Assembly: GCA_024679065.1 (NCBI GenBank)
Contig: JAGIQG010000004.1
Location: 63,240,001-63,304,000, forward strand
Direction of reading: 5' to 3'
Length of the DNA stretch: 64,000 nucleotides
DNA from: Sphyrna mokarran
Taxonomy: Eukaryota
The notes below the pieces were generated by a model. That model had not been told where the DNA came from. It was given only the letters and a program-made list of their open reading frames with translations, and did no database searches. Of this stretch, positions 11,804 to 61,315 are shown piece by piece. Both the position numbers and the translations under genes were made by a program. How positions within the stretch are numbered: the first letter of the stretch is position 1; every line of letters starts with the position of its first letter.

Positions 11804-11858
11804 ATGTTGGCTAGTGTGACAATTCCGTGCATTACTGTTCTCGGAATCATTTTTACAG
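11804..11858 (+). CDS. Gene A exon 1, signal peptide [18 protein letters not shown](G)
   Basis: ATG at 11804, hydrophobic 18 codons + 1 nt, donor CAG|GTATCT; resembles gene B leader (CITVLGI vs CIWVLGI). Confidence 0.8.
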
Positions 11859-14800
11859 GTATCTGCTCCTATTACGCTTTGTTTTCTCATTCAATCGCGT
11901 AGTTATGTATCTTCGTTTTGGTGCAGCATGTTTCATTGTCCTTTACAAATATTATCTGAATCCCTTTCCTCCCTCTCTCCCTCCTGTAATATGATATCAT
12001 TATTACATTTTTACATTTTTCCCCATAGGTCCCGGTGGAACTTCAGTAAGAGTCACTCAGCTCCCTGAGAGAATAAACGCAAACATCGGTACAAACGTTT
12101 CCTTTCATTGTTCGCTTCCTTTCTTTCAAGACGGCCCACGTGTGAATGTAAACTGGTGGAAAAATGGTGATTATCAATATCTAACGTCCGGACAAAATGA
12201 TAGAATAATAACTGGATTCAAGACTAAATTCAGCGGCTTCCTTCGGATAATTAATGTGAATGTGCAGGACACAGGAGTATACTATTGCATTGTCACGCAT
12301 CAAGGCAAAACAGCTGGAAATGGAACTGGATCTAATTTAACAGTATGGAGTAAGTATAAAAAATGTAAATAAGATCCATCTGACTACAAATTTCAAACTT
12401 CAAAACATAAATTTTGATTTTAAAAATTCAACTTTTCAATTAATTTCAACGATCAGTGTGTGTACATTCCAATTATACTGGTGATTGCTGTATGCTGATG
12501 TATGCTGCAATATTTCAAAAATAATGATAAAGAGAACATTGTCTTCTAAATGTGTGATACCAACGTGTATTCAACAAACAATTGAAGTTGAAATTTCGAT
12601 ATTGGATAAGTTGGGTACCTCGGCATTAAGAGACAGTGTTGAGGATCTGATAAAGAGAACGCACTAATCCTATTTCATGGTGTAATTCGCCTACGTTGAT
12701 TGCGAAGGGCTGTATGCCTCTATTCGGGCCAGCTGTTTCAATTGTTGATGGTCTATTTTTTAAGTTCATATTTCTAACGGTTGAATTACACAATGACTAA
12801 TTTGAACAAAACCATCCTCATCTTTCACCCATCATTTTAGCCTCCAGCAAGCGTGAATCATCCGGGTCTTTGGTGCAAAATCTAACTAATTTAATAAATT
12901 AAACTTCCCACATAGCTTTTAGATTCGATGGGGTGAAATTCACCCTAGCGGAATCGCAAAATATGAGAACATCCCAAATTACATAGCGAGCAATGCGCTT
13001 CCGAATTAGAATAGAAGATTGGACGAGATTTTTTATTGGATACGAACTCGCTTTCACTCGCATGTTTTTTTTTGTCCCCATAAAAACAGTTTAAATTATA
13101 AGCAAAATAAACGCCACACGCGAGACTGTCGTCTGACTGAATTGTCACTACAGATAATGCAATCTAAATAACTATCCTTCCATTGCTCCACGCCAGGTTT
13201 ACGGCCAACAGTGGATTGGGACACATAGTTTAGCTGGTCATCGAGATTAATGGCATTAACTTAAACGAGTTGGTTACAACTCTGTTCCCTGAGCCAGGAG
13301 GATTTTGGTTCAAATCCACCGACCACCCCCTTCCGCCGCCAGGTATGAGTAAAAATCTCAACTCTGACACCCCAGTGCAACACTCCAGCGTTCTGCACTG
13401 CCACAGGGGCAATTATTTGGATAAGTCATTAAGCCTGCTGCTAAATGGATGCCGACGATCCCATGTCTCGATTTTGAAGCGCAGGGAAGTTATCCACGGT
13501 TATCCCCGAGTTGTCTTACGTGTCCAGGCCAATATTTCTCCTTCATCAACATTACGCAAAAGATGAACTGATTGTGATCACGTTTGATTTAACTTGATGT
13601 GTTATTGTCACAATTACTAGCATACATGAAAAGTATTATTTCTTGCGTGCACGCTGCAGTTTCTGGAAATTTCTTGTTCATAGATTTGCTGCCAATTGTT
13701 CATCGTTACAACAGTGACAGCATTTCAGTTGTTCTGCATTGATTGCTGGGCGTTTGAGACGTCCTCTTGTGCGAAACGCGTTACCTAACTACCAGTCTTT
13801 ATATTCTTTATTGTTCTAGCCCCACCAACCCCATTGAAAATTTACCCTCAGCAACTTGAAACGGATCCTGCTGCACCGCTGGTTGTTCTGTGCACCACAT
13901 CTCCTTTTTATCTAAAGAATATCAGTTTCACTTGGTATAAGGATGGCATTATAACTAAAATAGGGATCAATACCATCATTAAACCCAACACCAATGGACT
14001 CTACGAAGCTTCCAGCCAGTTGCAAGAGGCGCAGCCTTCCCGGCCCGGAACTGTTTATACTTGCCTGGTCTTTCACAGTGCGCTCCAAATTCCAGCCATA
14101 ACCACTCACATTGTCACCTACCCAAACACAGGTAAGATTTCTGATATAATCATATAAATTTACAGTTTTGGAAAACGTTATTTCACTCAGCCTTTCGGTG
14201 CAGCCTTTTTGAAAGAACTGTCAGATCCATTCCGCCGGCAGCAGCATTACTCCCACAACCGGCAAATCAGCATCATTAACCCTTTATCCAATTGCCTTTT
14301 GCAAATAGCTACATAAATTATTTCCAGAAAATTTTCAGGCAGCACGTTCTATATCTTCACAATTTCCAGTTAGAAAATAATTCTCCCCACAGCCCCTTTA
14401 TTATTTGCCAATGGTTTTCGATTCAGAAGTATTCATGAGACCCACTTTTTGTAGAACACGTTTTCCCCAATAATAAAATACAGTTGTCATAATTTTGCAA
14501 AATTTCCGTTAGATCTCACCTTAATATTTTCCTACTCTGTTGAAAAGAATCATAGTTTCAAATCTCGCCACGTAGCCGAAGGCCCATTGTCGTTGTTAAA
14601 CCTAGAAAACATCCTTTGCTATTCTCTCTGAGATATTGGCATTATTCCTAATATGAATTGTACACTATACATCTGTATGACTTCCATGTATCCAATGGTT
14701 CTTTCGCACGGCTAATCATCCGAAAAGTTTCACTGATCAACATTTCAACTTCCCAAACACCATTTGAAGATTTATAGATATCTCAGAATTTAAATTACAT

Positions 14801-17800
14801 GAGAGTATCTACGTTGATTTCAGTAAAATGCACACTTCATAATTATTTGCATTAAATTGCACTTGTCAGTTGTGATCACTTTTCCTGTTCCATGGAGTGC
14901 TAAAGTCGTCTGCAGTCGTCATAACAGTGACCAGTGTTGCAGGATTTATAATCTTCAAATTGTACTCCCATATCGTATAAAGAAATAGTCCTAATGTTGA
15001 ACAAAGATTCAGTCAAAAACAACAGTTTACCATTGTTCTCTATATCTATAATTTAGCCAATAATGCATCTAAAGGACCACCATTCATCAAATCCCAAGTG
15101 TTTATTTAAACATAACAAAGCCACCCTTCGACATTTTTATTTTGGTTCATAATATTTATTTTCTTATTCATTCACAGGATGTAGATGTCACTGGCTAGAC
15201 CAGCATTTATTGTCCATCCTAATTAGCCTTGAGAAGGTAGCCGTGAGCTGCCTTCTTGATTCACGGCAGTCTTTGTGCTGTAGGACCGTTAGGGAGTCCC
15301 TGGATTTTGATCCGGTGACGGTGAGCAAACGGCGATATAATTCTAAGTTAGGATGGTGTGCACAAATGGTCTTGCATCTGTTGCCTTTACAGTTATGGAG
15401 GTAGACATCAGTGAGTTTGAAAGGTGCTGCGAAAGTGAGTTTTTTCAGTGCATCTTGTAAATGTACCACCATTGCTGCAACCAGTCATGACCCCTGTTGG
15501 GGTTCTTTGAGAAAGTAAGAAGCATTGTTGATAGGGAGGAATCTATGGATGTGTTGTACTTAGATTTCCAAAGGCATTTAACAAAATGCCATGGTAAAGA
15601 CCCCTATCAAAATAAGATTCATAGTGTAGGGGGTAACATGTTCGCATGAATACAAGATTGACTATCTAACAAGAAGCAGACAGTAAGCATAAATTGATCG
15701 TTTTTGGGTTGGCAAAATGTGAAAAGTAGACTGTCAAAGGGATTAGTATTTGTATCTCATCTATTCCCAATTTTTTATCAATAACTTGGATTAAGGGACT
15801 AAATACACAGTTGTGAAATTTGCTAACGCCACAAAGATTGATGTGGGTAGATTCTTTATAGGAAAGTGAATCAGATAAATGGGAATGTCGGTTTCAAAAC
15901 ACAAACAGGTCAACCAGAATCAAATTACAGAGCAGGTTCGAGGGGGCAAATGGCCCATGTCTGCTTCTTTTTCGTATGTTCGTAGCAATATGTAGACACC
16001 TGTATCTTAATACAAATGTTCGGAAAAACTAAATATTTGCTTTGTTTCAGAGGTCGATTATATTGAATTGAATAGTGTACTCTTTTTATTTATACAAGTC
16101 ATTTAATTCTTACAGGACATCAGAGCAGCAATTTATTGATTTTTGCATTGACAAAAGGCGGGTTCCTTCTCCTGATGTTGGGTCTCATTATTGTGACGCA
16201 TTACGTCACAAAGAAAGATAATGGTAAGAAAATTAAAATCCTTTTCACTCAAGTAAGCACAACTTTTAAAGAGGGAAGGAGAGCGAGGGGAAAAGTCCTG
16301 TTACAGGTGAAGAGAAAGTTGTTTGCAATTGAACAATGCAAACAATATCCTGTCACAGAGAAGCAGAGGTGATTGCTAATTCTAGCCACTTGTGGTATGC
16401 ACTTGTGGTATATGTGGTATACGTGCAATTTCTCACAATCATTCCTGTTGGCTTCATTTATAAAGATCAAGCTATGGAAGTCGATGATCCCCAAAGGCAT
16501 ATACGCAAATACATAGCAAAAATCTCGCACAAAATACCCTGGGTACAACAACAGGCATAAGGCCATATTTTAGGGACATTTGACTGGTGTGACGCACAGC
16601 TACAGGCTCAAGAGACTATTTAAAAAGTGCCCTGAAAATCGATGATTGTCAACTTTCAAAGTTCTACAAACATGTCTAACCCAACACTAGACACTTGAGT
16701 CTCACGTAAAACCACATCCTAAGAAAATTCAATCTAATGCTATGAAATACATTTTTTCAAATTACTTTGTTTTAGTTCATTTAGACACGAAAAATTCCCA
16801 ACATTGAAGCAAAATGTGGGTCGCAAAGTATTCACGCAGTACGGTGGCACTGTGGTTAGTCCCTCATAACGCCAGGGACCTGGGTTCAATTTCACGCCTT
16901 GAGTCATTGTCTGTTGGAGTTTGCGCATTCCTCCATGCCTGTGCGGGTTTCCGCCGGGTGCTCCGGTTTCCCATCACAATCCAAAGATGTGCAGGTCAAA
17001 GATTGACCCTGCTAAATTAATCTTAGCGTCATGGGGATTAGCAGGGTAAACATGTGGGGTTACGAGAATGAGGCCTGGAAGGAATTGTGTTCGGTGCAGA
17101 CTTGACGGGCTGAATGGCCTTCTTCTGAACTGTAGGGATTCTATAGATTTCAACTCTGATTTTGTTAATATGGTATTTTAAAGCATTATCGGTGTAGCAA
17201 TAGATTTGATTTTCTTTCTATTTTGGTTGGAATTTTCTAAATTCGAGAGTCAATCACTTAGCCAGTGTTTTTATTGCAAAATCTGCTTTTGTTGCCTGCA
17301 TAATTTAATAACGTAATACTTTTATGTTATTAAAATCACTGAGCGTAAAATCATTTATTCTGCCCATGCGATTTCCAAAGTAGTTTCTTGCGCAAGGCCG
17401 GTATCAGAACAACTCACTTAGAAATCATGGAATCCTACAGTGTAGAAAGAGGCCATTCGGCCCATCGATTCCGCACCAACCACAATCCCACCCAGGCTCT
17501 ATCCCCATATCCCCACATATTTATCTATTAATCTATGCACCACAGAGCACTAAGGGCAATTTAGAATGACCAATCAAACTAGCCCGCACATCTTTGGATT
17601 GTTGGAGGAAACCAGAACACATCCACGCAGATATAGGAAGAATGTGCAAACTCCACACAGTGACATCAGCCGGAATTCGAACACAACTCCCTGGAGCTGT
17701 GAAGCAGTAGTGCTCACCACTGTACTACCATGCCGTCTTTCCTTTTGTCAAACCTGGTTGGAAACCAAACCTGTTATTTTATCTTTTGCACTGAGTCTGC

Positions 17801-20800
17801 AAGAAGTTTATTTTTAGGCTCAGTAAGTGCTCATTGTGAAGTCTTCAATAATTCCTAGGTATGCACAAGGATGGTGGAAGATGTCATTATCCGGAACAGC
17901 AGGTATGTTTCTATAATTCGTTCTAATACATCGCAAATGTTAATATATACAAGTGATGTAATCAATTTATGGCAATAAATGTTGATGCCTTATTCCATTG
18001 CTGCACAAATTCGTTTGAAGTAACGCAATGCGAATTCTGCATTTATATCATTTCCAATAAATCAGAGAGGCCTGAATTGTCTATCTGAATTGTAACTGTA
18101 TCTGCCTGAATTGTAACTGTATCTGCTGGCTGAGAATAAGCATATTGCATAAAACTGAACATCCATTTTAATGAATAGGTTAAAAAAATCTACTTTATCT
18201 GTCTGTACACAGTGGACAATATGATGAGGGCTGTAGAACATCCATTAACAAATTGAAAACTGCCACATGATTTCATCTGACAGTGATATATTGAATTCAG
18301 TTTTCATAAATGTATCTCATCAAAATACAAAAGCTGCAAGAATATCCTTTAAGTTGTGTTCCCTCAAGAACCAATTGGTTCATTAAAGTCTGACAACAAA
18401 GCATATCTATCATTTTTGAATGATAGCCGTCCACACTGTATTGGTTAACTCTTAACTCCCTTCTGAAATTTCCAGATATGCCCATCGCGAATTTCTCAAC
18501 TCATCCAAGTTTAGGTAATCAAACCTGGTCCAATCAGCAGATCCAGTAATTGAGAGTTAGTTGAAAATGCTGTCAAAGTTGTCAGTTTTTCTTTAATGTT
18601 CCCATGCGTGCAGAGGCATTACAATTGAAACTTGGGATCAATTTGCCACAATGAGAATAACCACAAGGATGCAGGTACCAGGTAATTGGCATTCGCTCCC
18701 ATTGCCTTATCCAACCATCAAATAATCAACTAAATTTGGAACATCCCAACAAATACAAAGGAAGAGCATTATTTAAATAGCGATATATTGGGAATTGATG
18801 ATGGACAAAAGGATTTGAGTGTCATTGTACATTAGTCAATGAAAGTTCAGAGACAGCTGAAGCAAGCAGTTAGGAAGGCAAATAAACTTTATTGCAAGAG
18901 GACTTGAGTTCTAAAGTATGGATGTCTTGCTCAATTATAAGGTGCCTTGTTAAGACCACACCTGAGTATTGTGTATAGATTTGTTCTCCCCACCTAAGAA
19001 AGGCTATATATGCTATAGAGGGACTGCAGCAGAACTTCTGAAGTGGATATCAGGTTGGGTAGGTTTGTCATGTCAGGAGAGATGGAGAAATTGGAAGGAT
19101 AAGAAGAAATCTGATTAAAATATATAAAATTCTGAATAAACTGGGCAAATATTTTGTTTCCTATCTGCTGACGAGCTTTCTATCCATCTTAAAACATTAT
19201 CAATAATCTTATTTGTTTTAACATTACACAGTAGTTTACTATGTAAAAACTTGTGGAAAGCCTTCTGAACGTCTAAATAAGTCACATTCACCAGTTTTCC
19301 TTGGTCAACTCTGTTAGTTACATCCTCAAAAATTCGAATAGATCTATCAGGAATTATTTCTTCTTCGCCTGATTATGCCACTGCTTTCCAAATGCTCAAC
19401 TATAAAATCAAATTCAAGCAACTTCACCAATACTGCCATTAGGCTGACTGCTCTATAGTTCGCCGTTTGCTCTCCTCCTCTTTTTTTGAAGAGACACAAT
19501 TTCCAGGGCCACTTTGTCAGTAGTCTGGAGTGAAAATTATTATGAATCCAGGAGATTTAGCCAGCTTCAATCCCATCAATTTTCCCAAAACCATTTTTCT
19601 ACTAACACTGATTTCCTTCCGTGTCTCATGAAAACCTGTTTTTTCTCAGGACTTCTAATATATTATTTATATCTTCCTTTGTGAAGGCAGAAGCAAAGTA
19701 TGAGTTTAGTTCCTCAGCCAGTTCTTTGTTCCCTGTCATGAATTCTCCCATTTCTGGCTATAAGAAGCCTACATTCGTTTTCCGATTTTTTTCTCTCTTT
19801 CCATACCAATAGAAACATTTGCAGTCAGTTTTTATGATCCCTGCTAATTTATTTTCATTGTTTATGTTCCCCTTCTTAACTAATGCATTGGTCTTCCTTT
19901 ACTGAAAATTAAACAGTTCCCAATATTCAGGTCTATTGCTTTTTAATAGAACATAGAACATAGAACAATACAGCACAGAACAGGCCCTTCGGCCTTCGAT
20001 GTTGTGCCGACCAAAATAAAAAAGCAATGCCCCTCCAAACTAAACCATTCCCTTCTCTTCCATATACTTATCAATTAACCTCTTAAACGCCACCAAACTT
20101 GGCGCATCTACACAGCTGCAGGCAGGGCATTCCACTCCCTAATCACTCTTTGAGTAAAGAACCTACCTCTGATATCCGTCCTATAACTCATACCCCCTAA
20201 TTTAAAGTTGTGTCCCCTCGTGCTAGCTTTTTCCATCCTAGGAAAAAGGCTATCACTGTCACCCTATCCAAACCTCTAATTATCTTATATGTTTCAATAA
20301 GATCCCCCCTTAGCCGCCTCCTTTCTAACGAAAACAACCTCAAATCCTTCAACCTCTCTTCATAGGACCTGCCCTCCATACCAGGCAACAACCTAGTAAA
20401 CCTCCTCTGTACCCTCTCCAATGCCTCCACATCTTTCTTATAATGTGGCGACCAGAACTGCACACAATACTCCAAGGGCGGCCGCACTAGAGTTTTGTAC
20501 AGTTGCAACATGATGCTGCGGCTCCTAAATTCAATCCCCCTACCAATAAAAGCTAAGACTCCATAAGCCTTCTTAACAAATTTATCCACTTGACTGCCTA
20601 CTTTCAGGGATCTATTGACACATACACCAAGATCCTTCTGTTCCTCAACACTATTAAGAGCCCTACATTAGCCCTATACTCTACACATTCATTGTTCCTG
20701 CCAAAGTGCATTACCTCACACTTTTCCACATTAAACTCCATTTGCCACCTCTCGGCCCAGCTCTGCAACTTGTCCAAGTCACTCTGTAAACTAAAACACC

Positions 20801-23800
20801 CCTCTTAACTATCTACCACACCACCAACTTTAGTATCATCTGCAAATTTACTGATCCATCCCTCAATACCCTCATCCAGATCATTTATAAAAATTACAAA
20901 CAGCAGGGGCCCCAAAACAGACCCCGGAGGCACACCACTCGTCACCGAACTCCACGATGAATATCTCCCATCAACCACCACCCTCTGTCTGCTATCTGCC
21001 AGCCAATTTCTAATCCAATTAGCTAAATCACCCTCTATTCCACACATCTGCATTTTCTGTAGAAGTCTTCCATGGGCCACCTTATCAAAAGCCTTACTAA
21101 AGTCCATATATACTACATCAACCGCCTTACCCCCATCCACCTCTCTGGTCAATTTCTGCCAATTTATATGCTTCTTCATTGAATCTTATGCAATTTCCAA
21201 TTTCCCGCGTAGGTTATGATTTGGCCACAGTTCCATTACCAATTATGGAATAACAGGAATAAGCACCTTAAATGCCTACCATTGCTTGTCCAGTTATTCC
21301 TTTTCAATAATACCCCCCGATCCATTATCACCAATTCATGTCTTATACCATTTTTGTTATCTTTATTGGGATTTAGGACCCTGGTCTCCGAATCAATCAT
21401 GTCACTATCCATCTTGGCAAAGGTGGTATGTTATGATCACATCCCGATGGACTTGTTCACTGCTAGATTGCAAATGAATCCTTTCTCATAACAATACACT
21501 GTCCAAGGTGGCCTATTCCTCGTTGATTGCTCAACATATTAGTCCAGAAAACCATACTGTATAGACTTCAGAATTTCCTCCTCTATTTTACTGTGATTAA
21601 TCTGATTCTTCTAATCTATATGTAGATAAAGTCACTCTTCATCACAGACGTTTATTAACACATGCACATCTGATTTCCTGTCTAATGCTACTCCCAACAT
21701 TGTCACTACAGTTTGATGTTCTGTAAACCACATCCACAAAAGTTTTTTTCTTTCCCCCTTCGTGTTTCTTATCACAGCTCGTACGGATTGCACATTGTCG
21801 ATGCCAATAATATTTTTCCTCAATATCCTATCAATGTTTTCTTTGATCAACAATACAACTATCTTTTGCGACTGTCCTTCTTAAAGACTGAATAACCTTC
21901 AATGTTTAGTGACAATCCTTTGTCAACTTTGAACCATGTCTCTGTCATTCCAACTATATCATTTCCGTTTACATCCATCTGTGTTTCTAAATCATCCATT
22001 TTGTTTTGAATGCTCTGAACGTTAGGTGTGTCCATTTAAAAGTATTTGCCCATTCCTATAACTATTTTTACCATATTCATATCTGACTCTGGTCTTTGTT
22101 TTCTCTGCTATCACTTTTCTTATTCTATTTGCAGTCTTTTTCACTTGAACTTGCTTCTCCCTGTTTTGAATCCTCACTTACATTCCCATCCCCCAGTCAC
22201 TTCCCAATCATTGTAGCAAGAAGCAGCTGCCTCCTCCCCCACCCCGCCCCCCCCCACCCCGCCCCATCATCCCCGCCCCTCCTAAGGAAACGATCTCTGG
22301 TCCTGCTCAGAACTCATCTCTCCATCCCAATGCCTCAGGAATCTGAAACCCTCCCCCTCACACCATATTTTTAGCCATATATTCATCTGGCTGCTGCCAC
22401 TCTGGCACCAGTTGTAATCTTGCAATAACTACCTTTGGGGTTCTACTTTTCAGCTTGTTTCTTAGCTCCCTATATTCTGCTTAAGGGACCCTTTTTTGTC
22501 ATTGTGATTTGTTCCAATGTGGACCACGATCACTGGCTGTTCAGCCTTGATCACCTTGAATAATGGAGTAGACTCAATGGACCACTTGTCCTACTGTTGC
22601 TCTGTTTCTGCTTTTTATTATTATTCAATCGTGGGACATAGGCATAGCTGGCTAGCCAGCATATATTGCACATTCCTACTTGTCCTCGCTCAGAGGGCAG
22701 TTGAGATTCAACCACATTGCCTGTGGCTCTGGAGTCACCTGAAGGCCAGACCAGATAAGGACGGCAGATTTCTTTTCGAAACGACATTAGTCAATCAGAT
22801 GGGTTTTTCTGACAATTGACAACGGTTTCTCGGTATTTAGTAGATTCTTATTTGCACATTTTTACTGAATTCAAATTTCACCACCTGCTGTGGCGGGTTT
22901 TGATCCCAAAACATTAGCTGTGTTTCTGGGTTAGTAATCTAGCCATAACACCATTAGTCCATCACCTGCCTCCCCCCCCCCCCCCCCCCCCCCCCCCCGC
23001 CTTTTTTTTTGTATTTGTCTTCAACTTTATTGCATTAATGGGGCCAGCGAGTCTAATCAAATATTGAGAAAGCTGCTGGAACTGAGGGTATTATGCCCAC
23101 TGTATTTCCCCTTTTTATATATAATGAATGGACAGAAATATGTTGCCATTTAGTCCATTTTTGTGATACATACTGCATGCTCCATCAAATTACTCGTACA
23201 GGCAAGGAAGCAACATTTCAGGATATCACCCAGTCAGTAGCTGAATATACTAATGATTTTTCTGTGATAGATTTTCACACTTGCTTTACATTTGTATTTC
23301 TAATTCCATTTCTTCTTCCTGCTTAATTCATCAGAGTCCAGCTTGGTGCAAAGCGATGGAAATATCTGTAGATAGAAAAGTTACATAATTAGAGAATTAT
23401 TATTATAGATGTTGATGTGGATATTGTGATATTGTGGATGAAGTAAAATATCAAAGTAAGACTTTATATTTAGTCTGGAATTTCTCTGTCTTGTTGCAAT
23501 ATAGACTGTTTTGTCCCGCATTATGACCATTAATTTCTATTTGTGGTTTGTCAGAATATTAGAAATGACCTGATTGCTGGCCATGGTCCTTTCTCTCAGG
23601 CTATGTTAATTCAATTCCTGCCAGGTGATAATTGCTGCAGAAATTTTCTAATTATGCTTAAAGTTGAATTTCATAAAATAATATCAGTAGATTACTTATT
23701 TTTGCTGTAACGTCTGTATGAATTCAACTGTGGCTTCCATCAATGGAATACAGGGAGCAACTGTGACTCCTCATTTGTTCCTTTATTTCCCTCATCATGA

Positions 23801-26682
23801 GATTTCTCAGGATTCCATTAATCTTAACAGAATACTCGGAGAAATCCCAGAGCACTGAATGAATGAATATCTTCAACCATTTATGCTGTTTCTCTTGGGA
23901 TAGTTCTAGCCACGCAGACAAGTTTAGTCTGGAACAAGTCGTATGTTTGTGGAATTGTGCAGACAGATTTCTGTGTTTTCCTGATGCCTGATCATTAAAC
24001 AATGTTTGAGCAGAGCACCCAAATGGAAATCCGGTGAGTGGAATATTGCCATCACATTTCAATATTAGGAAATTGCGGCAAATTTTGTTCTCAGCAGTGC
24101 CTCTACCAGATTTTCCATTCGGTACTCAATGCTGACAATGTTGACAATGCTTGAAGCCCAGATGGTAAATCTCTGAAACTCTGATCACCCTCATACAAAC
24201 GATATATTTTAAGTAATAAGACTGTTAGAAACCAGGGCAGAAACTCCAAGGTATATTGTGAATTTAGTGTAGACCGAAAATGTTTGTGATTTTGCAATAG
24301 TGGGAATACAAAGTGTTCCACTCCAGGTGTGATAACTTTTATGAAAACAAACTTTATTTAACAATTAGTTAAAATATGACAAAAAGAATTAACATAACTT
24401 TTACTGGTTGAAATACTTAAAGATGATAAAATATAAATCTTAAGTTTTTTTATTACTTCCAATTTTAGCAACAATCACAAAGATGTATATTTCCTTCAGA
24501 ATCAGTTAGCAACGCACAGTGCCTTAAATGAATTCTTAGTGCTCCAGCTTTTTAATCCCTCTGGTCAAAGTTATGGAGAGAGATACTCATCTTTGATTTT
24601 CAGGTAGCAGCCTCCATAGAGGAAATCTGTCTTCACACACAGAACTTCAATGAGAGAGAGTGAGAAAACACCTCTTGCCTATTTCAGAATTCTGGAGATA
24701 GATACTTCCAATTTCTGAAAACGGAAGAGGGCAAAAGAGCAACTCTTTTCTATTAGAAAGAGCAACTCTATTCTATTAGAATAGAATAAAAATGCATATC
24801 CCGACCCGGAGACGTGTTTTGCTGACATTCAAACGCTTGTTATGGTGCGGTTAGCCACTGCTGTTCGTTGAGAAACACAGCAGCCAATCCGTTCAGAGCA
24901 AGATCCTACGAATATCGATGTAAACTGCAACTGCCTTCTTTATCCTCTTTCTAAGCCTTGCCCTATCCACTCCACTTTTCATTTAATGTAATATTACTCT
25001 GAAACCACAGGTAACACATCAAAGAATATCAACAATAGCATTAGCCTAGATTAAAACAAGTGCTTCAATGGTTAGAGGAGCAATTAACCTTATGTAGTAT
25101 CAGCAAGTGGGCTGTGAATTGTGACTGGTTGGCATCGTAATTAGAGTTGAAGCATAAGATAGTCCCTTCAGAAGAAATATGACTCAAATACATTTCTTAA
25201 AGGCACAGTATCATCACAAGACTCCGTCCACCCTCTTTGCGCTGGTGCTGGAGGGATGGGACTCTGCCAGAATGCAATGGACAGTTGTGATTTCATTTAA
25301 TTCTGGGGCTGCAAATTATGGGCTTATTCATATCAGTCTGTAGACGGAGTGGATAACAAGTGTTTTTTTTTTAATTGACTTTCAGTTCATTCAAGGAACT
25401 GTCGAATTGTTGCCACCTTATTCTGCACCAGATACGACCGAATCCTAAACAAAAACCTCCAAGACATCAAGAACAGACACCATGCATCCAGGTAGGATCG
25501 AGCAAAGATGCGGAATGCGTAATTAACAAGTTGTGTATGGGAAAATACATTTAATACGGCTTTGCTACTTCTGTCTGCGTTAGCGCTAATTCTGCGACAT
25601 TCTTCCGGTATTATGTCAGTTAAAATTCCGTTTGGCTTCAGAGTCGAAAGATTGTAGGATATAGCCCACTCAGGAAACTTGAGAGTAAAGTATAATTTGG
25701 CACTCTTGTGCATTACTAGGGGAAGTCTGCATTATCTGAAGTGCCGTATTTCAAAGGAGACGTTAGACTGAGGCTCTAGTATTCTAGATTTGCAGCAGAT
25801 TAGGCCTATTACTCCCTTCAGTTCAGAAGAATGAGATGGGGATCTTAATGAGATGTAAAAGTTGTTAAAGGAGATCGGTAAGGTGAAGTCAATGTCCGCC
25901 AATGTAGAACAAGACGTCATAGTTTGAGGGTAATGGATAGCAGATTGAAAATAGAGACCAGGAGAAATTACGGGAGTCTGTAAAATTCATCTCTCAAGAT
26001 TTTAATGAGATGCTGGGACATTGACTAAATTAAAGGAAGAAGTGAAGTGGTTTTTAAATCGTAATAGTTTGAAGGGTCATGGTGAACAGACAGGAAAATA
26101 AAGTTTGAGGCCGAGATAAGAGCAGCCATGACCATATTAAAGGTGGAGCAGGCTCGAGGGCCTGAATTGCGTACCCCTGCTCTTAGTTCTTATGATTCTT
26201 ATGTATGATTCATATGATTCAATGGCATTATTTCGAAGAAGAGCAGGGATGTTATCCCCTGTGTCTCAGTCAATGCCTTTGGTCCCCATTACGAAAACAA
26301 ATTGTTAAGAGTACATCGATATTCGTAGGATCTTGCTCTGAACGGATTGGCTGCTGTGTTTCTCAACGAACAACAGTGGCTAACCGCACCATAACAAGCG
26401 TTTGAATGTCAGCAAAACACGTCTCCGGGTCGGGATATGCATTTTTATTCTATTCTAATGAGTTACAATAAAGTAAAATTGGAACTAATTATATTCCCAA
26501 TCATTGATTTCACAGACAAGCAAGGATTACCCGATAATAAGCTGACGTATGCTGCTCTAGATGTGGTAGGGTCAAAGAAAACTTCACAGCCAAATCATAA
26601 TGATAAAAGCACGGAATATGCTCAGCTAAAGATGGAAAAACAAAGAGCAGGAGTTATCTGCACCGAACCGAAAATCACGTGA
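11804..26682 (+). CDS. Gene A: multi-exon IgSF receptor, leader-V(J)-C1-TM-cytoplasmic ITIM (SIRP-like / non-rearranging antigen-receptor-like). Minimal model join(11804..11858,12029..12349,13820..14131,16116..16223,26516..26682), 320 aa
   Basis: Five exons with GT-AG boundaries and phase-1 junctions; 55+321+312+108+167=963 nt, open to TGA at 26680-26682; domain motifs given in the exon entries. Extra small cytoplasmic exons may exist. Confidence 0.85.
12029..12349 (+). CDS. Gene A exon 2, VJ-type Ig V-set domain
   Basis: Acceptor ttttccccatag, donor A|GTAAGT; [45 protein letters not shown] shows the B-strand Cys, C-strand Trp, DxGxYYC and a J-like GxGxxLxV in one exon. Confidence 0.93.
13270..13795 (+). 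mobile_element. Old tRNA-headed Deu-type (SacSINE/AmnSINE-like) SINE in gene A intron 2
   Basis: GGTTCAAATCC B-box, GTCCAGGCCAATATTTCTCCTTCATCAAC core; paralog at 44775-45185. Confidence 0.6.
13820..14131 (+). CDS. Gene A exon 3, Ig C1-set domain
   Basis: Acceptor ttgttctag, donor G|GTAAGA; [46 protein letters not shown] matches the C1 signature (C..FY..I..TW, NG.Y...S.L, YTC.V.H). Confidence 0.92.
15490..15985 (+). mobile_element. Old CR1 relic
   Basis: GATGTGTTGTACTTAGATTTCCAAAGGCATTTAACAAA (D.VYLDF..F.K) and a degenerate 3' hairpin. Confidence 0.6.
16116..16223 (+). CDS. Gene A exon 4, stalk + transmembrane helix with Lys
   Basis: Acceptor ttcttacag, donor G|GTAAGA, phase 1-1; [36 protein letters not shown]; Lys codon 16154-16156; KK after the helix. 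Confidence 0.85.
16836..17145 (+). mobile_element. HE1-like V-SINE
   Basis: tRNA-like head ACGGTGGCACTGTGGTTAG..GGGTTCAATT, V-domain, CR1-like tail GGGCTGAATGGCC..GATTCTAT. Confidence 0.9.
17419..17737 (-). mobile_element. HE1-like V-SINE
   Basis: Reverse complement of head, V-domain and tail. Confidence 0.88.
17859..17902 (+). CDS. Candidate small cytoplasmic exon of gene A ((G)[14 protein letters not shown])
   Basis: attcctag acceptor, CAG|GTATGT donor, open from phase 1; ends in phase 0, so it needs a partner exon or an alternative acceptor downstream. Confidence 0.45.
18740..22330. mobile_element. Old CR1 relics (+ strand 18740-19140; - strand 19150-22330, split by a young CR1)
   Basis: Degenerate RT and endonuclease fragments. 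Confidence 0.6.
19946..21152 (-). mobile_element. Young CR1, 5'-truncated
   Basis: [33 protein letters not shown]; C-terminus; (GTTCTAT)n tail. Confidence 0.95.
22630..22972 (-). mobile_element. tRNA-derived SINE (related copies ~6440-7390 -, 36240-36410 -, 54095-54420 +)
   Basis: Minus-strand head GGGAGGCAGGTGATGGACTAATGG; shared core GGGCAGTTGAGATTCAACCACATTGC..GGAGTCAC..AGGCCAGACCAG; adjoining poly-C tract 22972-23000. Confidence 0.7.
25432..25491 (+). CDS. Candidate small cytoplasmic exon of gene A ([20 protein letters not shown])
   Basis: cttattctgcaccag acceptor, CAG|GTAGGA donor, 60 nt, open in phase 0-0. Confidence 0.35.
25700..26205 (+). mobile_element. Old CR1 3' end
   Basis: AGAAGAATGAGATGGGGATCTTAATGAGATGTAAAAG; 3' GGCTCGAGGGCCTGAATTG..TTCTTATG tail. 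Confidence 0.65.
26516..26682 (+). CDS. Gene A terminal exon with ITIM (LTYAAL) and ITIM/ITSM-like motif (TEYAQL)
   Basis: Acceptor gatttcacag; [55 protein letters not shown]; motifs at 26542-26559 and 26611-26628, tyrosines 23 aa apart. Confidence 0.82.
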
Positions 26683-38882: not shown

Positions 38883-38928
38883 ATGTTTGAAAGTCAGTGC
38901 ATATGGGTCCTGGGAATTACTTATGAAG
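38883..38928 (+). CDS. Gene B exon 1, leader MFESQCIWVLGITYE
   Basis: ATG 38883, 15 codons + 1 nt, donor AAG|GTATTT, similar to gene A leader, in phase with the V exon. Confidence 0.72.
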
Positions 38929-39030
38929 GTATTTTCCACAACGAATTGTTTTCTCCTTTAGAATCTTCGAATCCTGATTTCTTTTTCATCCGTGTGTCCG
39001 CTTATATTCTGCTTGCATAAATATCAATTT

Positions 39031-39097
39031 ATTTATCTATTTATCTATCAATCCATCCATCGATCTCTCTATCTATCTGTCTCTATCTATCTATCTC
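39031..39097. repeat. Imperfect (TCTA/TCCA)n microsatellite in gene B intron 1
   Basis: atttatctatttatctatcaatccatccatcgatctctctatctatctgtctctatctatctatctc. Confidence 0.8.
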
Positions 39098-39149
39098 TGG
39101 TTAAAGTACAGTTTGTGCGTGTAACAACTACATTTTAAATATTTTACAG

Positions 39150-39461
39150 TTGTTTCCACCTGGGTGTCGCAATCGCCTGAAAGCACCGTCGTGATGGCAG
39201 GTTCAGACATTACACTCTATTGTACAGCGAATGTTGTCCAGATTCACTCAGATGTGGATGTTTATTGGTGGAAACTTGGCGATGAAACCTTTTTACAACC
39301 GAAATCTAATGGCAGAAAACGATTCCTTCCTTTTAAAAGCGGAGCGACTTCCTTCCAGATTCTGAATGTTCGTGTCTCCGACTCCGGATTCTATTACTGC
39401 GGAGTGCGAGACAAAGGCAGCAGGATCCTCAACGGAACTGGATCCAAACTTGTTGTGCACG
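39150..39461 (+). CDS. Gene B exon 2, intact VJ-type Ig V-set domain
   Basis: Acceptor ttttacag, donor G|GTAAGA; WVSQSP..GSDITLYC..VYWWKLGD..FQILNVRVSDSGFYYC..ILNGTGSKLVVH; aligns without gaps to gene A V (~35/101 identical by hand). Confidence 0.92.
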
Positions 39462-39550
39462 GTAAGAGACGCAGGGCATCTGTCATTGCAGGATGCGATA
39501 CAGAACATCAGAGGCAGTTTTGACTAATCAGGGGGCATATTTGTGGGGTT

Positions 39551-42500
39551 ATAGAACATAGAACATAGAACATTACAGCACAGAACAGGCCCTTCGGCCT
39601 TCGATGTTGCGCCGACCAAAATAAAAAGCAATGCCCCTCCAAACTAAACCATTCCCTTCTCTTCCATATACTTATCAATTAACCTCTTAAACGCCACCCA
39701 ACTTGGCGCATCTACGACAGCTGCAGGCAGGGCATTCCATTCCCTAATCACTCTTTGAGTAAAGAACCTACCTCTGATATCCGTCCTATAACTCATACCC
39801 CTTAATTTAAAGCTGTGTCCCCTCGTGCTAGCTTTCTCCATCCTAGAAAAAGGCTATCACTGTCCACCCTATCTAAACCTCTAATCATCTTATATGCTTC
39901 AATAAGATCCCCTCTTAGCCGCCTCCTTTCTAACGAAAACAACCTCAAATCCTTCAAACTCTCTTCATAGGACCTGCCCTCCATACCATGCAACATCCTG
40001 GTAAACCTCCTCTGTACCCTCTCCAATGCCTCCACATCTTTCTTATCATGTGGCGACCAGAACTGCACACAATACTCCAAGTGCGGCCGCACTAGAGTTT
40101 TGTACAGTTGCAACATGATGCTGCTGCTCCTAAATTCAATCCCCCTACCAATAAAAGCTAAGACTCCATATGCCTTCTTAACAACTTTATCCACTTGGCT
40201 GCCTACTTTCAGGAATCTATTGACACATACACCAAGATCCTTCTGTTCCTCAACACTATTAAGAGCCCTACCATTAGCCCTATACTCTACACATTTATTG
40301 TTCCTGCCAAAGTGCATTACCTCACACTTTCCACATTAAACTCCATTTGCCACCTCTCGGCCCAGCTCTGCAACTTGTCCAAGTCTCTCTGCAAACTATA
40401 ACACCCCTCTTCACTATATACCACTCCACCGACTTTAGTGTCATCTGCAAATTTACTAATCCATCCTTCATACCCTCATCCAGATCATTTATAAAAATTA
40501 CAAACAGCAGGGGCCCCAAAACAGACCCCTGAGGTACACCACTTGTCACCAAACTCCACGATGAATATCTCTCATCAACCACCACCCTCTGTCTTCTATC
40601 TGCTAGCCAATTCCTAACCCAATTAGCTAAATCACCCTCTATCCCATACATCTGCATTTCTGCAGAAGTCTTCCATGGCCACCTTATCAAACGCCTTACT
40701 AAAGTCCATATATACCACATCAACCGCCTTACCCCCATCCACCTCTTTGGTCACTTTTTCAAAAAACTCGATGAGGTTAGTAAGGCACGACCTACCCTTC
40801 ACAAAACCATTCTGACCATCCCCAATCAATTCATTTCTCTCTAAATAACTATAAATCCTATCCCTAATAATTCTCTCCAATACTTTGCCCACAACAGAAG
40901 TAAGACTCACTGGCCTATAATTCCCTGAAGGTCTCTCTTCCCCTTCTTGAACAATGGGACCACATTCGCTATCCTCCAGTCCTCCGGAACCACACCCGTA
41001 ACCAACGACGACCTGAAGATCAGAGCCAGAGGCTCTGCAATCTCCTCTCTTGCCTCCCAGAGAATCCTAGGGTAAATCCCGTCCGGCCCAGGGGAATTAT
41101 CCAACTTCAAACCCTCGAGAATTTCTAACACATCCTCCCTATCTACTACAATACTTCCCAATTTGCAACCCTGTACCTCAGTGCTCTCCATAGCTACATT
41201 TCCAGCACTCTGCGTGAATACTGAAGAGAAATATTTATTCAGTGCCTCACCAATCTCTTCAGGCTCCACACACAACTTCCCCCTGCTGTCTATGACTGGC
41301 CCTAATCTTGCCCTAACCAATCTTCTATTCTTAACATATCGAAAGAAAGCTTTAGTATTCTCCTTAATCCTATCAGCCAACATCTTCTCGTGTCCCCTCT
41401 TAGCTCTCCTCAATTCACTTTTTAGCTCCTTCCTGGCTAATCTATAGCTATCCATTGCACTAACCGAGCCTTCAAGCCTCATCCTGACATAAGCCTCCTT
41501 TTTCCTTTTAACCAGCAAATCAACTTTTTTCGTACACCAAGGTTCTCTTACTCGACCATTTCCTCCTTGCCTGACGGGGACATACTTATCAAGGACTCGC
41601 AGCAGCTGCTCCTTGAATAAGCTCCACATTCCAGATGTTCCCAGTCCCCGTAGTTTCCTAGTCCAATCTATGCACCCTAATTCTCTCCTGATGGCCTCAT
41701 AATTACCCTTCCCCCAGCTATAACTACTGCCCCCAGCTTCATGCCTATCCCTATCCATCACTAAGGTGGACGTAACCGAATTGTGGTCACTATCACCAAA
41801 ATGTTCACTAACTTCCAAGCCTAACACCTGGTCTGGCTCATTGCCCAGCACCAAATCCAATGTAGCCTCACCTCTAGTTGGCCTATCTACATACTTAGTC
41901 AAAAAACCTTCCTGCACACTCTGTACGAAAACTGACCCCTCTAACGAGCTAGAGCTATAGCTATTCCAATCAATATTAGCAAAGTTAAAGTCCCCCATCA
42001 CAATTACCCTACTACTTTCACTCCTAATCAGAATTGACTTTTCAATCCTTTCCTCAACCTCTCTAGAACTATTAGGAGGTCTGTAAAAGACTCCCAACAG
42101 GGTGACCTCTCCTCTCCTGTTTCTCATCTCAGCCCATACTACCTCAACAGACAAGTCCTCATCAAACTTCCTTTCTGTCACTGTGATACAGTCTTTGACT
42201 AATAATGCCACTCCTCCCCCCCCCTTCTACCTCCTTCTCTACTCCGACTAAAGCATTTGAACCCTGGAACCTGCAACATCCATTCTTGTCCCTGCTCTAC
42301 CCAAGTCTCTGAAATGGCCACAACATCGAAGTTCCAGGTACTGGTCCAAGCTGCAAGTTCCTCCCCCTTATTGCGAATACTCCTTGCATTAAAGTATACG
42401 CATTTCAAACCACGCCCCACCCCACCCGTACGCCGCTGTGTTTTACAACTCTCTTCTATAACCCCCTTACTCTCATCCCTCTCAGCACCCCAACTACTTA

Positions 42501-43732
42501 GGATCCCACACCCCCCCCGAATCAGTTTAAAGCCCCCATCATAGCCTTAGCAAATTTTCCCCCCAAGATATCAGTCCCCCTCTGGTTCAGGTGTAGACCA
42601 TCTCTCTTGAAGAGGTCCCACCTATCCCAGAATGAGTCCCAATTGTTAAGGAACCTGAACCCTTCCCTCCTGCACCATCCACGCAGCCATGAGTTCAAAC
42701 TTTCTCTTTCTCTGTTCTTCTCTAAACTATCCCTTGGCACAGGCAAGAGTCCAGAGATAACCACTCTGCCTGTTATGGACCTAAGCTTCCACCCTAACTC
42801 CATAAATTTTTGTTTAATATCCCCTTCCCTTGTCCTACCTACATGATGTGTCCCCACATGAACTATGACTTGGGGCTGACTCCCCTCACCCTTAAGAATC
42901 TTAAAAACCCGATCTGCGACATCCTGGACCCCAGCCCCTGGGAGGCAACACACCAGCCCTGAGTCCCGTTTATTACTGTTTACCCTCCTATCTGTCCCTC
43001 TAACTATGGAGTCTCCTATAACTAGGCCTAATCTCTTATTCCCCCCACCCACCTGAGCATTCTCAGCAGGCTCACCCCCAGAGACCTGCTCACTTTGGTC
43101 AGCTCCAGTTGATTCTTCCTCAACTGTAGCCTCCAAGACAGAAAATTTATTTTGGAGGGGAACAGCCCCAGGGGATTGTCACCCCGATTGCTTCTTACCC
43201 CTCCTCCTAATAGTTACCCAATTATCACTTTTAGGAGTTACAATCTCTTTGTTACTCCTGCCTATATCCTCCTCAACCTCTCGAATTACCCTGAGTTCCT
43301 CTAATTCCAGCTCCAGCTCCTTAACACGATCCTCAAGGAGCTGCAAATGTGCACACTTCCTGCAGGTGGAATCAGCAGGAACACTACTGGTGTCCCTCAC
43401 CTCATACATACTGCAGGAGGTGCAACGTACTGCCTGCACTGCCATCACTGTTACTTTAATTTCCAGGAGAAGAAAAAAAAACTTCTCACACACTTTTATT
43501 ATTAGGTTAGAGGAGGGGGGAGGGTGGGATACTCTACCTGTGTAGAGTATCGGGTTACCTCTCTGGACCAATTTATAGAGTCAGAGAGAAAAACTTCCGG
43601 TTACAAGTTAGTTTAAATAAAAAACGGCAAAAACTACTCCCGCTCGCTGTTTTAACCAAAGAGAAAAGTTAAAAAACTACTTGACAATCGAACTTCTCGC
43701 TCTCCCAAATCGCTGCCTCTCCGTGCTGCTCC
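39551..43732 (-). mobile_element. Near full-length (~4.2 kb) CR1/HER1-type LINE in gene B intron 2: ORF1 (Zn-finger/coiled-coil + SGNH esterase) and ORF2 (APE + RT), frameshifted
   Basis: ORF1 CTSC..CRKC, LEDRVKELELELEEL, GDSIVRG, HVGTH, DGLHL; ORF2 [38 protein letters not shown]; (GTTCTAT)n tail. Confidence 0.95.
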
Positions 43733-44559
43733 AATGGAACAATGAGGCCATGTTCTCCGATGAGAACAATGATCCATCTGACTGCAAATATTTCACACTT
43801 CTAAGTCTTCCTATATGTGTTTTGATAGATTTTAATTGTAAATTAAACCCCACGACTAATGAAAAATACTTGAATCGATTTAAATTGGTGTTGAATCGTA
43901 CTACAATAATTCGGTAACATTGGTCTGCTTTATCTGTTTAGAACTTAGTTGCTTTTTTTAAATGCGCCCTAAGTTTGGAGGCAGCAAACAATTGAAGTTA
44001 AAAAATGCGGTGTTAGCTAATAAGGTGCATGTTTGAACAGTAGTATACACGTGCCGATTTGCAGATAGATCCTATTTTAATTTATCCGCATAGGTTACAG
44101 CTGATTGTATCCATCAGGATTCAAAACCTCCCCATTTATGATATCATGGTCCATAGGAAATCACCTATGACTAATTTTTAAATGTAGCACTCTTGAGCCT
44201 TACATTTTCTCACAATTTTGGCCGCCAATAAATATAAAATCATCCGACATATTGGTGCCGGAGTCTCACCAATTTTATAATTTTTTTTAGATTCAGATGT
44301 AAAAATCACCTTCAGCGGAACAGCAAATTAGACCAACATCCCAAATTGTACCTAATTGCCTCCCCAGTAGAATAAAAGATTGAGCGACTTTTTAAATGGG
44401 TACGAACTCATCCCGTGTTTTTTGGTTATTTTTGCCCGACGATAACAAATTTAAATTTCAAGCGAAATACTACTGACATAGGTGAAAATGTCCTTTAGAA
44501 TATAATTATTGATAATGCAACCTAACTCTCTGTCCTCCTAGGACAAAAGGTTAAAGTTC

Positions 44560-44700
44560 CACTCACCTGGAACTCACCTTTCAGAACAGCGTTCCAAAAG
44601 ATTGTGAGTTTCCTATCAAATAAACTTGTTGGACTTTAACTGGTGTTTTGAGACTACTTAGTATGTTTACTCCAGTCCAATGCCGGCATCTCCACATCAT
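44560..44700 (+). mobile_element. Degenerate Penelope-type terminal repeat fragment
   Basis: AAATAAACTTGTTGGACTTTAACTGGTGTT..CCAGTCCAATGCCGGCATCTCCACATC matches the right arm of 51410-51608 and 52067-52107. Confidence 0.65.
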
Positions 44701-44774
44701 AACTTCCACTACCCCACCAGCAATCGATTGGAACACAAAGTTTGGCTGGTAAACTGGATTAATAGTATTAACTA

Positions 44775-45185
44775 TCACTGAGTTGGTAACACGGTCTCCT
44801 CTGAGAGTCACAAGGACCTTGGTTCAAAGCCCAGTCCAGGAGTTGAGTATAAATATCAAGGCTGACCCTCCAGTGCAATACTCCAGGAATCGTGCACTGC
44901 TGGGGGTGCGTTTCTTCGGAAGAGTCATTAAACCTAGTCTCACTTTGCCGCTACGATGGACGTGAAAGATCCCGTACCATTACTTTGAAGAAGAGCAAAG
45001 GTATCCAGGCCAATATTTCTCCTTCAATCAACATTGCAACAAATATGATGTGATTGTTTTTATTGTTGCTGTTTTTGGAAGCTTCTGTTCACAAATTGGC
45101 TAATAAATTTTCATCATTACAACGGTAACTATATTTCCAACGTCCTGTTTCATTGTAAAGCTCTCTAAGACGTCCGCAGTGTGAA
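44775..45185 (+). mobile_element. Deu-type SINE, paralog of 13270-13795
   Basis: GGTTCAAAGCCC..CCAGTGCAATACTCCAG..TCCAGGCCAATATTTCTCCTTCAATCAAC; same position just upstream of the C1 acceptor. Confidence 0.65.
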
Positions 45186-45217
45186 ACTGCCAATTTTTCA
45201 ATTCTTCATTGTTCCAG

Positions 45218-47332: not shown

Positions 47333-48260
47333 GTAAGATTGCAGGTCTCAGTTATTGCAAGTTGAGGCATTTCTGCTGCTTTCCCGACTTGGCTAAATCT
47401 AGTTTCTGATTTATTGTCCTTTTTCCACACTTGTCACCACATTTTAAACTCCCGAAAGTGAAGTTCATCGGTTTAATTATGTTACATTTCAATCAAGTTT
47501 AATTTTATTCCAAAAGCTTCACGATTGCTTTTTCATCGTGCGTCTCTCTCAGGAATTCTGGAGTCAGGGAGCAGTGTGCAGCTGAGTCCTTGGGAAATAC
47601 TTCCCGATTGATTCGTGGAGACTGAAGCGCCCTTACCCGAATCCCACAATCTGTGCTCAAAATCTGATGCAAATTGCTAAGTTACCAGTTAGACAATTTA
47701 TGGTATTAAATGTTTCCTATTGACATTTTCAATCACAATCTCGTTACAAATTACAAAGAAGATTAAATTGAGCTCTGAGAAAATATATATTTCCATACAG
47801 CTGCACCGCTGTGAATAAAACGGTGAAGTAGCAACGTTTACTTACACGACAGGTAGTCTGGCAGTATCCGTGCAGAAAGCAACAGAGTTGATATTTCGAG
47901 CCCTATATAACATTTCTTCAAATAATTCTCATTTTCTTGAGTTCTCAAGTCATATTGGATACGGAACGTTAGCGTAGATGTTGCCAGAGCCGCTATTTCC
48001 AGCACTTTTTTTAATACAAGAATCCAGAAGCTACAACATTTTGTTTTTATTCCATTACTAACACACATTGGGTTTGAAAAAGGCATATGCGACATATTTT
48101 TGTATGTGTTTCATTGATATCTCACATCGAGAAAGCACATCCAGATGTGCACGCGATGATTGGTCTTTCTAATGGTAACTCTTGTCATTTGGAAACGGTG
48201 TCAGGTCCAAAGAGTGAAGATATTTTTTTTCATTTAGAAATAGCGCAAAAAACAGGGCGA

Positions 48261-61195: not shown

Positions 61196-61315
61196 CATCA
61201 ATATCATCATCTATTTACACACTTCCCAGGACTCGCAAGGCTCATGATCCCTATTTTAAATCAGTTTTCTATACCCCTCCATTCCCATTCTGTTCATGTG
61301 CCCATCTAAGTATTT

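What the first reader, a model, noticed from the sequence alone, without database searches (positions are those of the whole stretch)
16116..26682. Charged TM lysine plus tandem ITIM/ITSM-like motifs in the same receptor
Seen: the [23 protein letters not shown] carries Lys (16154-16156), and the tail has LTYAAL (canonical ITIM) and TEYAQL 23 aa later. Established: TM Lys/Arg recruits ITAM adaptors (DAP12, FcRg, CD3); tandem ITIMs recruit SHP-1/2. SIRPa has LTYADL and TEYASI with no TM charge, while SIRPb1 has the Lys and no ITIMs. Receptors with both (KIR2DL4, NKp44, CHIR-AB) are uncommon. The K-GGF-LLLM stretch also resembles the TCR-alpha TM (ILLLKVAGFNLLM) with a one-residue offset. Inference: a bifunctional switch receptor, possibly retaining an ancestral TCR-like TM.
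Basis: partly seen in the sequence, partly recalled or inferred. Interest (0 to 1): 0.75.

Follow-up and report, generated by a model that had tools for sequence, protein, structure and literature searches.

The report
Shark receptor switching inhibitory to activating
This shark immune-receptor gene has a charged membrane residue absent from its close relatives, and frameshifts put its inhibitory tail motifs out of frame under the family's usual splicing, so it is likely an inhibitory receptor turning activating, as known for KIRs, rather than a dual receptor.

Summary
The motifs are real: TM Lys (16154-16156), LTYAAL (26542) and TEYAQL (26611). They belong to one gene (leader-VJ-C1-TM-tail) of a large cartilaginous-fish SIRP-like paired-receptor cluster. 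Against homologs, the second is frameshifted with a stop, and the last exon lacks one base. The family's usual splices therefore give 289- or 300-aa proteins with the Lys and no ITIM. Only skipping both tail exons (320 aa; such a skip exists as a horn-shark isoform model) or a weak acceptor 5 nt downstream (333 aa) restores ITIM/ITSM. The Lys is derived: Gly in the Mustelus ortholog, and no credible Lys at that column in 103 homologs, so an ancestral TCR-like TM is rejected. The TM exon changed fast (8 vs 0 lineage-specific changes) while the ectodomain stayed intact. Family-wide, basic TMs and the ITIM exon largely exclude each other (1 of 23 vs 37 of 80). Best reading: a recent inhibitory-to-activating switch, as in activating KIR, with a latent ITIM isoform. 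No RNA was available and the indels are unverified by reads.

The parts
11804..11858 (+). Leader exon (ATG, signal peptide), phase 1
   Evidence: matches homolog leaders; GT donor
12029..12349 (+). V-set Ig exon with germline-joined J-like end ([10 protein letters not shown])
   Evidence: Pfam V-set E 2.6e-8; 78% identical to catshark P0001; canonical AG/GT
13820..14131 (+). C1-set Ig exon
   Evidence: Pfam C1-set E 4.6e-8; 93/103 identical to Mustelus P0019
16116..16223 (+). Transmembrane exon, phase 1-1
   Evidence: 8 window-specific vs 0 Mustelus-specific changes
16154..16156 (+). TM lysine codon AAA, derived (Gly in closest homologs)
17859..17902 (+).
   Evidence: found with horn-shark e5; 12/14 identical to P0019; AG/GT
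25386..25491 (+). Tail exon e6, 106 nt against 102/108 nt inferred for homologs: frameshifted, stop TAA at 25446-25448, 43 nt before the last junction
26516..26682 (+). Last coding exon e7; starts ACAAGCAA where homologs encode T-K-Q (one base short), so out of frame after e5; reserve acceptor at 26521
   Evidence: 43/54 identical to P0019 in the ITIM frame
26542..26559 (+). ITIM LTYAAL
26611..26628 (+). ITSM-like TEYAQL
38884..48220 (+). Neighbouring broken paralog: leader-like piece ~38884-38929, intact V exon 39150-39461, C1 with stops split by a LINE (45225-45395 and 47196-47334), TM remnant near 48160 (ends approximate)

Best explanation
This is one gene of a cartilaginous-fish SIRP-like VJ-C1 receptor cluster whose TM carries a derived Lys and whose ITIM/ITSM exon is out of frame under the family's usual splicing, so it likely makes a short-tailed receptor predicted to signal through an ITAM adaptor, i.e. 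an inhibitory receptor likely converted to an activating one. Shown: exon structure, the frameshifts in the assembled sequence, the derived Lys, the fast-changing TM exon, the intact ectodomain. Inferred: that the gene is expressed; that TM-e5-e7 (289 aa) and TM-e5-e6-e7 (300 aa) are the main products and escape nonsense-mediated decay (stop in the last exon, or 43 nt before the last junction); that the Lys pairs with an adaptor Asp (DAP12- or CD3zeta-like; which one is open); and that skipping e5/e6 gives a minor 320-aa isoform carrying both signals.
For: Isoform translation. e5 is present in 15 of 19 close-clade models; 3 skip it, 1 differs. Homologs start e7 with T-K-Q in phase 0, and horn-shark P0004's tail is the +1 reading of P0010's last exon (2 of 20000 random controls pass). 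Lys column in 74+29 TM-bearing homologs: one K (P0092, at the C1/TM junction of a 131-aa partial model) and two R. Basic TM with e7 ITIM in frame 1 of 18 vs neutral TM 27 of 56, Fisher p=0.0008; further rows 0 of 5 vs 10 of 24. TM exon 8 vs 0 lineage-specific changes (p=0.008; C1 3 vs 5); 8/35 vs 3/103 for C1, p=0.0008; two Ser just before the Lys became Phe and Leu. C1 is far better kept than the dead neighbour's: 5 vs 20 changes, 10 unclear, p=0.004. Precedent: activating KIR arose by TM Lys gain plus a stop in the ITIM (PMC2213150, passages).
Against: No expression data. The indels were not checked against reads. The TM rate test is one of six exon tests (Bonferroni about 0.047) and its comparator P0019 seems itself to lack most of V. 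Both lesions falling in tail exons has p=0.06 by length. Tail loss is common in neutral-TM models too (29 of 56 lack the e7 ITIM), and rows are related and include isoforms, so the Fisher p is too small. The family's usual activating residue is Arg three positions nearer the N-terminus, not Lys here. e7 keeps an open ITIM frame with both motifs intact and is not significantly accelerated against Mustelus (7 vs 3, p=0.34). A 2014 screen found no FcR-gamma in sharks (PMC4016189, passages), so that adaptor is uncertain.
Confidence: 0.5

Rival explanations
1. A decaying copy in a birth-and-death cluster: the tail is broken, the Lys is an incidental change, and the gene no longer matters.
For: Two tail frameshifts and loss of the third Tyr (VIYTEP to VICTEP) and of the juxtamembrane Cys; the neighbour is a pseudogene; the Mustelus ortholog model lacks most of V and the two catshark models seen (X2, X3) lack a TM.
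Against: 840 nt of leader, V, C1, TM and e5 are open with canonical splice sites; C1 has 5 changes vs 20 on the dead copy; change is concentrated in the TM exon.
Confidence: 0.25
2. One reading: a truly bifunctional receptor with Lys and ITIM/ITSM in its main product, because e5/e6 are skipped, the 26521 acceptor is used, or the one-base loss is an assembly error or an allele.
For: TM-e7 (320 aa) and TM-e5-e7alt (333 aa) are in frame; an e5-skip model exists in horn shark (P0004); both motifs are intact; the e6 and e7 shifts compensate, so only the TAA blocks a full-length three-exon tail; one relative, Mustelus P0044, has TM Arg plus an ITIM.
Against: e5 is intact with a strong donor and is used in 15 of 19 close models; 26521 is an AAG lying 5 nt behind a CAG acceptor; two separate lesions, one of +4 or -2 nt, are hard to explain as errors; basic TM and ITIM rarely co-occur in the family.
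Confidence: 0.17
3. Expressed but non-signalling receptor (decoy or adhesion type, like SIRP-gamma): the Lys snorkels to the outer head groups and binds no adaptor, and the tail is lost.
For: 17-residue windows score best with the Lys outside or at position 3; K-to-T lengthens the helix on the cytosolic side; 18 of 74 models have neither charge nor Tyr motif.
Against: Only 14 uncharged residues follow the Lys; 19-23-residue windows hold it at position 5-9; the new Phe and Leu before it favour insertion of the N-terminal half.
Confidence: 0.08

Closest known systems
SIRP family (SIRP-alpha inhibitory, SIRP-beta1 activating, SIRP-gamma)
   Same: J-joined V plus C1-set ectodomain; family profile hits SIRP-alpha 2wng E 1e-32 and SIRP-gamma 4i2x E 8e-29; ESM Atlas feature hits include SIRP-alpha clusters at 0.96-0.97; ITIM then ITSM-like tail; clustered paired receptors; RefSeq names many homologs PTPNS1-like or SIRP-beta-like.
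   Different: One C1 domain here rather than two (recalled for SIRP); the usual activating residue is Arg at another column; orthology by synteny and CD47 binding untested; UrIg2 and an IgA1 chain score higher.
Activating KIR (KIR2DS/3DS), macaque KIR3DH, activating Ly49
   Same: Same route: TM charge gained, ITIMs removed by a stop or by a frameshift linked to exon use (PMC2213150, passages).
   Different: Unrelated ectodomain; here the ITIM exon stays intact and would return in frame on exon skipping.
NKp44 (NCR2) splice isoforms; KIR2DL4
   Same: TM Lys with an ITIM present in one isoform and absent in others (PMC6514059, passages).
   Different: NKp44 has a single V and stalk; its ITIM did not recruit SHP-1/2 in the cited test; here the ITIM form is predicted to be the minor one.
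Non-rearranging VJ(-C1) genes: UrIg/UrIg2, NKp30, PRARP
   Same: VJ encoded by one exon with C1 domain; UrIg2 is the top PDB hit of the family profile (E 4e-39).
   Different: UrIg2 has nine C1 domains (PMC12227049, passage); NKp30 has no C1; this is a multigene paired-receptor cluster with ITIM tails.

Membership tests
Chondrichthyan VJ-C1 SIRP-like cluster (RefSeq 'PTPNS1-like') | Leader-VJ-C1-TM-e5-(e6)-e7 layout and sequence kinship | tested here: met
   tree places it with catshark P0001 (99/93) in a 13-row clade (100/99), 68 rows, 26 left out
SIRP proper | V with J motif followed by C1-set domain | tested here: met
SIRP proper | V-C1-C1 ectodomain (recalled) | tested here: not met
   only one C1 exon between V and TM
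SIRP proper | Synteny with the tetrapod SIRP locus; CD47 binding | not testable with these tools
   no genome held; no flanking marker genes identified in the window
Activating paired receptor | Basic residue inside the TM helix | tested here: met
   Lys at position 5-9 of the best 19-23-residue helices (crude scale)
Activating paired receptor | Short tail without ITIM | tested here: met
   289- and 300-aa products under usual splicing; genomic prediction only
Activating paired receptor | Binds an ITAM adaptor | not testable with these tools
   needs co-IP; no shark adaptor sequence in session
Bifunctional receptor (KIR2DL4/NKp44-1/CHIR-AB type) | TM charge and ITIM in one translated product | tested here: inconclusive
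   not met for the usual splices, met for two alternative joins; no RNA
Bifunctional receptor (KIR2DL4/NKp44-1/CHIR-AB type) | Charge conserved in orthologs together with the ITIM | tested here: not met
   Gly in Mustelus P0019, Gly/Trp/Ser in horn and bamboo shark homologs
TCR-alpha-like ancestral TM | Basic residue inherited from the family ancestor | tested here: not met
   column is G/L/V/A in most of 103 rows; 0 PDB hits at E<=10

The most novel reading that the evidence does not exclude
A shark receptor caught mid-switch and turned into a splice-controlled toggle: the one-base loss inverts the family's logic, so exon inclusion gives a purely activating Lys receptor and exon skipping gives a Lys+ITIM+ITSM dual receptor, inside an undescribed antigen-receptor-like VJ-C1 paired-receptor cluster that has invented activating members repeatedly since before sharks and chimaeras split.
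Probability: 0.15. Interest if true: 0.72.

Novelty: new variant of a known kind. Interest (0 to 1): 0.45.

Why it matters
If right, the inhibitory-to-activating switch known from primate KIR and rodent Ly49 also runs in cartilaginous fish, in a large VJ-C1 family that resembles the precursor of antigen receptors. That extends paired-receptor evolution to the base of jawed vertebrates and gives a testable case in which both steps (charge gain, ITIM loss) sit on one recent branch. The family itself, with about 100 models that largely split into Arg/short-tail and neutral/ITIM types, looks under-described.

Tried and rejected
No genome is held for the window, so synteny and same-species paralogs were not examined. 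The run search listed one DNA run holding 0.96 of the words and no RNA holder; this says nothing on expression. A first splice-site scan missed e5 and read e6 in the wrong phase; homolog-guided search found them. A first comparison with the dead C1 copy used Mustelus as outgroup (26 vs 7); rejected as biased and redone with six more distant homologs. TM exon against PDB: 0 hits. V exon alone against PDB gave generic Ig hits. Earlier findings of the scan: none. Literature: searches (listings) showed no paper on this family; the elephant-shark supplement held as text has 0 hits for SIRP or ITIM; Ohta et al. 2019 J Immunol, which I recall lists VJ-C1 genes, is not held and may describe it. TCR-alpha ancestry rejected because the Lys is derived. 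No structure was predicted; it would not change the verdict.

Full report
Observation. They are parts of one plus-strand gene: leader 11804-11858, V-set exon 12029-12349 ending in a germline J-like [11 protein letters not shown]1-set exon 13820-14131, TM exon 16116-16223. All have AG/GT ends and open frames.

Family. The V exon found 6 longer proteins, all from sharks and skates, at 53-78% identity. A full-length horn-shark homolog found 50, a 33-row profile 69, and the same profile added 119 rows from the 50% library, 47 of them up to 600 aa. Named members come from horn shark, catsharks, Mustelus, bamboo sharks, sevengill, basking shark, skates, rays and Callorhinchus; within a species they share one longest-contig length, which fits a single cluster. 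Against PDB the profile ranks UrIg2 (4e-39), an IgA1 chain and SIRP-alpha (1e-32) first; the ESM Atlas gives SIRP-alpha-like clusters at 0.96-0.97. In a V+C1 tree of 68 rows (26 left out as isoforms or lacking a scorable V) the gene pairs with catshark P0001 (99/93). The closest C1-TM-tail is Mustelus P0019 (C1 93/103), whose model also matches 7561-7611 upstream, so it is probably the positional ortholog. The window is thus probably from a carcharhiniform shark (inference).

The tail. Homolog-guided search found two exons between TM and the last exon: e5 17859-17902 (12/14 identical to P0019; phase 1 to 0) and e6 25386-25491. e6 is 106 nt where homologs imply 102 or 108, and reads into TAA at 25446-25448. 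The last exon begins ACAAGCAA where homologs encode T-K-Q after a phase-0 joint, so it is one base short. That homologs start this exon at the Thr codon is supported by horn-shark isoform P0004, whose tail is the +1 reading of P0010's last exon (2 of 20000 random controls pass). Of seven splice paths translated, two carry the ITIM: TM-e7 (320 aa) and TM-e5 to an AAG acceptor at 26521 (333 aa). TM-e5-e7 gives 289 aa and TM-e5-e6-e7 300 aa, both without ITIM. e5 is included in 15 of 19 close-clade models; 3 skip it, two of them with a TM Arg. These are gene models, not junction counts. Both short forms would be expected to escape nonsense-mediated decay (stop in the last exon; stop 43 nt before the last junction; 50-55 nt rule recalled). 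The e6 and e7 shifts compensate each other, so only the TAA blocks a long three-exon tail.

The lysine. At its column, 74 TM-bearing homologs show G 21, L 18, V 13, A 7, W 5, M 3, S 3, F 2, R 1, K 1 (19 rows without a scorable TM dropped, among them one with Arg at -3); the K is at the C1/TM junction of a 131-aa partial model. In 29 more rows one has Arg there, with a 22-residue tail (horn shark P0146; 18 rows dropped). So the Lys is a recent gain, not an inherited TCR-like feature; the TM exon hit nothing in PDB at E<=10. A crude helix scan puts it at position 5-9 of 19-23-residue helices, with only 14 uncharged residues after it, though the best 17-residue windows leave it outside or at position 3. 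The family has its own activating type: Arg mostly three residues earlier, with a short tail. The last-exon ITIM is in frame in 1 of 18 basic-TM rows against 27 of 56 neutral rows (p=0.0008, rows not independent), and 0 of 5 against 10 of 24 in the extra set. Basic-TM rows are scattered over the tree, which fits repeated origin or exchange, not tested formally.

Selection or decay. With horn-shark outgroups the TM exon has 8 changes specific to this gene and 0 specific to Mustelus (p=0.008; one of six tests), against 3 and 5 in C1 and 7 and 3 in e7. Two serines just before the Lys became Phe and Leu, which would offset the cost of burying a charge (inference). The C1 exon has 5 changes against 20 on the LINE-split dead copy next door (10 unclear; p=0.004). 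Both lesions lying in tail exons has p=0.06 by length. This favours a live ectodomain with a remodelled signalling end, but very recent death would look similar, and the locus is unstable in relatives: the Mustelus model lacks most of V and catshark X2/X3 lack a TM.

Mechanism. Most likely (0.5) an inhibitory receptor converted to an activating one: ligand binding by VJ-C1, the TM Lys pairing with an ITAM adaptor, no ITIM in the main products, and a possible minor dual isoform on exon skipping. Expression, adaptor and ligand are inferred. Rivals: decaying copy (0.25), dual receptor as main product or assembly error/allele (0.17), non-signalling decoy (0.08).

Known parallels. Activating KIR arose by TM Lys gain plus a stop in the ITIM, and macaque KIR3DH lost its ITIMs by an exon-linked frameshift (PMC2213150; abstract and passages). 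NKp44 has Lys with an ITIM in one isoform only (PMC6514059; passages). A 2009 structure paper states that no SIRP genes predate adaptive immunity and links SIRP to antigen-receptor precursors (PMC2785349; two passages). PMC10751288 and PMC12227049 (passages) discuss non-rearranging VJ-C1 genes without mentioning SIRP or ITIM. A 2014 screen found no FcR-gamma in sharks (PMC4016189; passages). The ITIM consensus used is from bioRxiv 10.1101/2021.06.11.448072 (passage). Seven searches (listings only) showed no description of this cluster; subscription papers, including Ohta 2019, and unseen supplements may hold one.

Verdict. The motifs are real, the 'same receptor' claim holds only for alternative isoforms, and the TCR-ancestry idea fails. 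A known evolutionary move in an apparently under-described shark family: new variant of a known kind, interest 0.45.

Noticed in passing
P0044 (Mustelus asterias XP_078066431.1): TM Arg at the family's activating column together with an in-frame LAYASL ITIM: a better candidate for a true dual receptor than the window's gene.
   Followed up: partly
Homolog set: About 100 chondrichthyan VJ-C1 models, seemingly one cluster per species, split into Arg/short-tail and neutral/ITIM types; RefSeq names them inconsistently (PTPNS1-like, Ig light chain-like, tapasin-related, B7-H6-like, MHC II-like).
   Followed up: partly
window 38884-48220: Broken paralog that joins a V of another subfamily (74% to catshark P0076) to a C1 of gene 1's type, split by a LINE; a TM remnant without splice acceptor lies near 48160. 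Possible domain shuffling within the cluster.
   Followed up: partly
P0004, P0005, P0009: Models that join the TM exon directly to a later exon and so lose the ITIM frame; splice control of the tail may be family-wide.
   Followed up: partly
window 13820-14131: The C1 has Leu where the family's nearly invariant FYP Pro lies (FYL); catshark P0001 also has Leu there.
   Followed up: no
P0188, P0191 (turtles): Multi-V turtle proteins, one with ITIM-like tail motifs, score against the family profile (E about 1e-52); possible tetrapod relatives.
   Followed up: no
window 7561-7611: Stretch 4.2 kb upstream of the leader that the Mustelus model P0019 uses as its N-terminus; probably conserved non-coding DNA called as an exon.
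   Followed up: no
window, many places (e.g. 19945-21155, 39551-42226, 45692-47199, 60652-63965): Numerous CR1-like LINE fragments 67-97% identical to each other.
   Followed up: no
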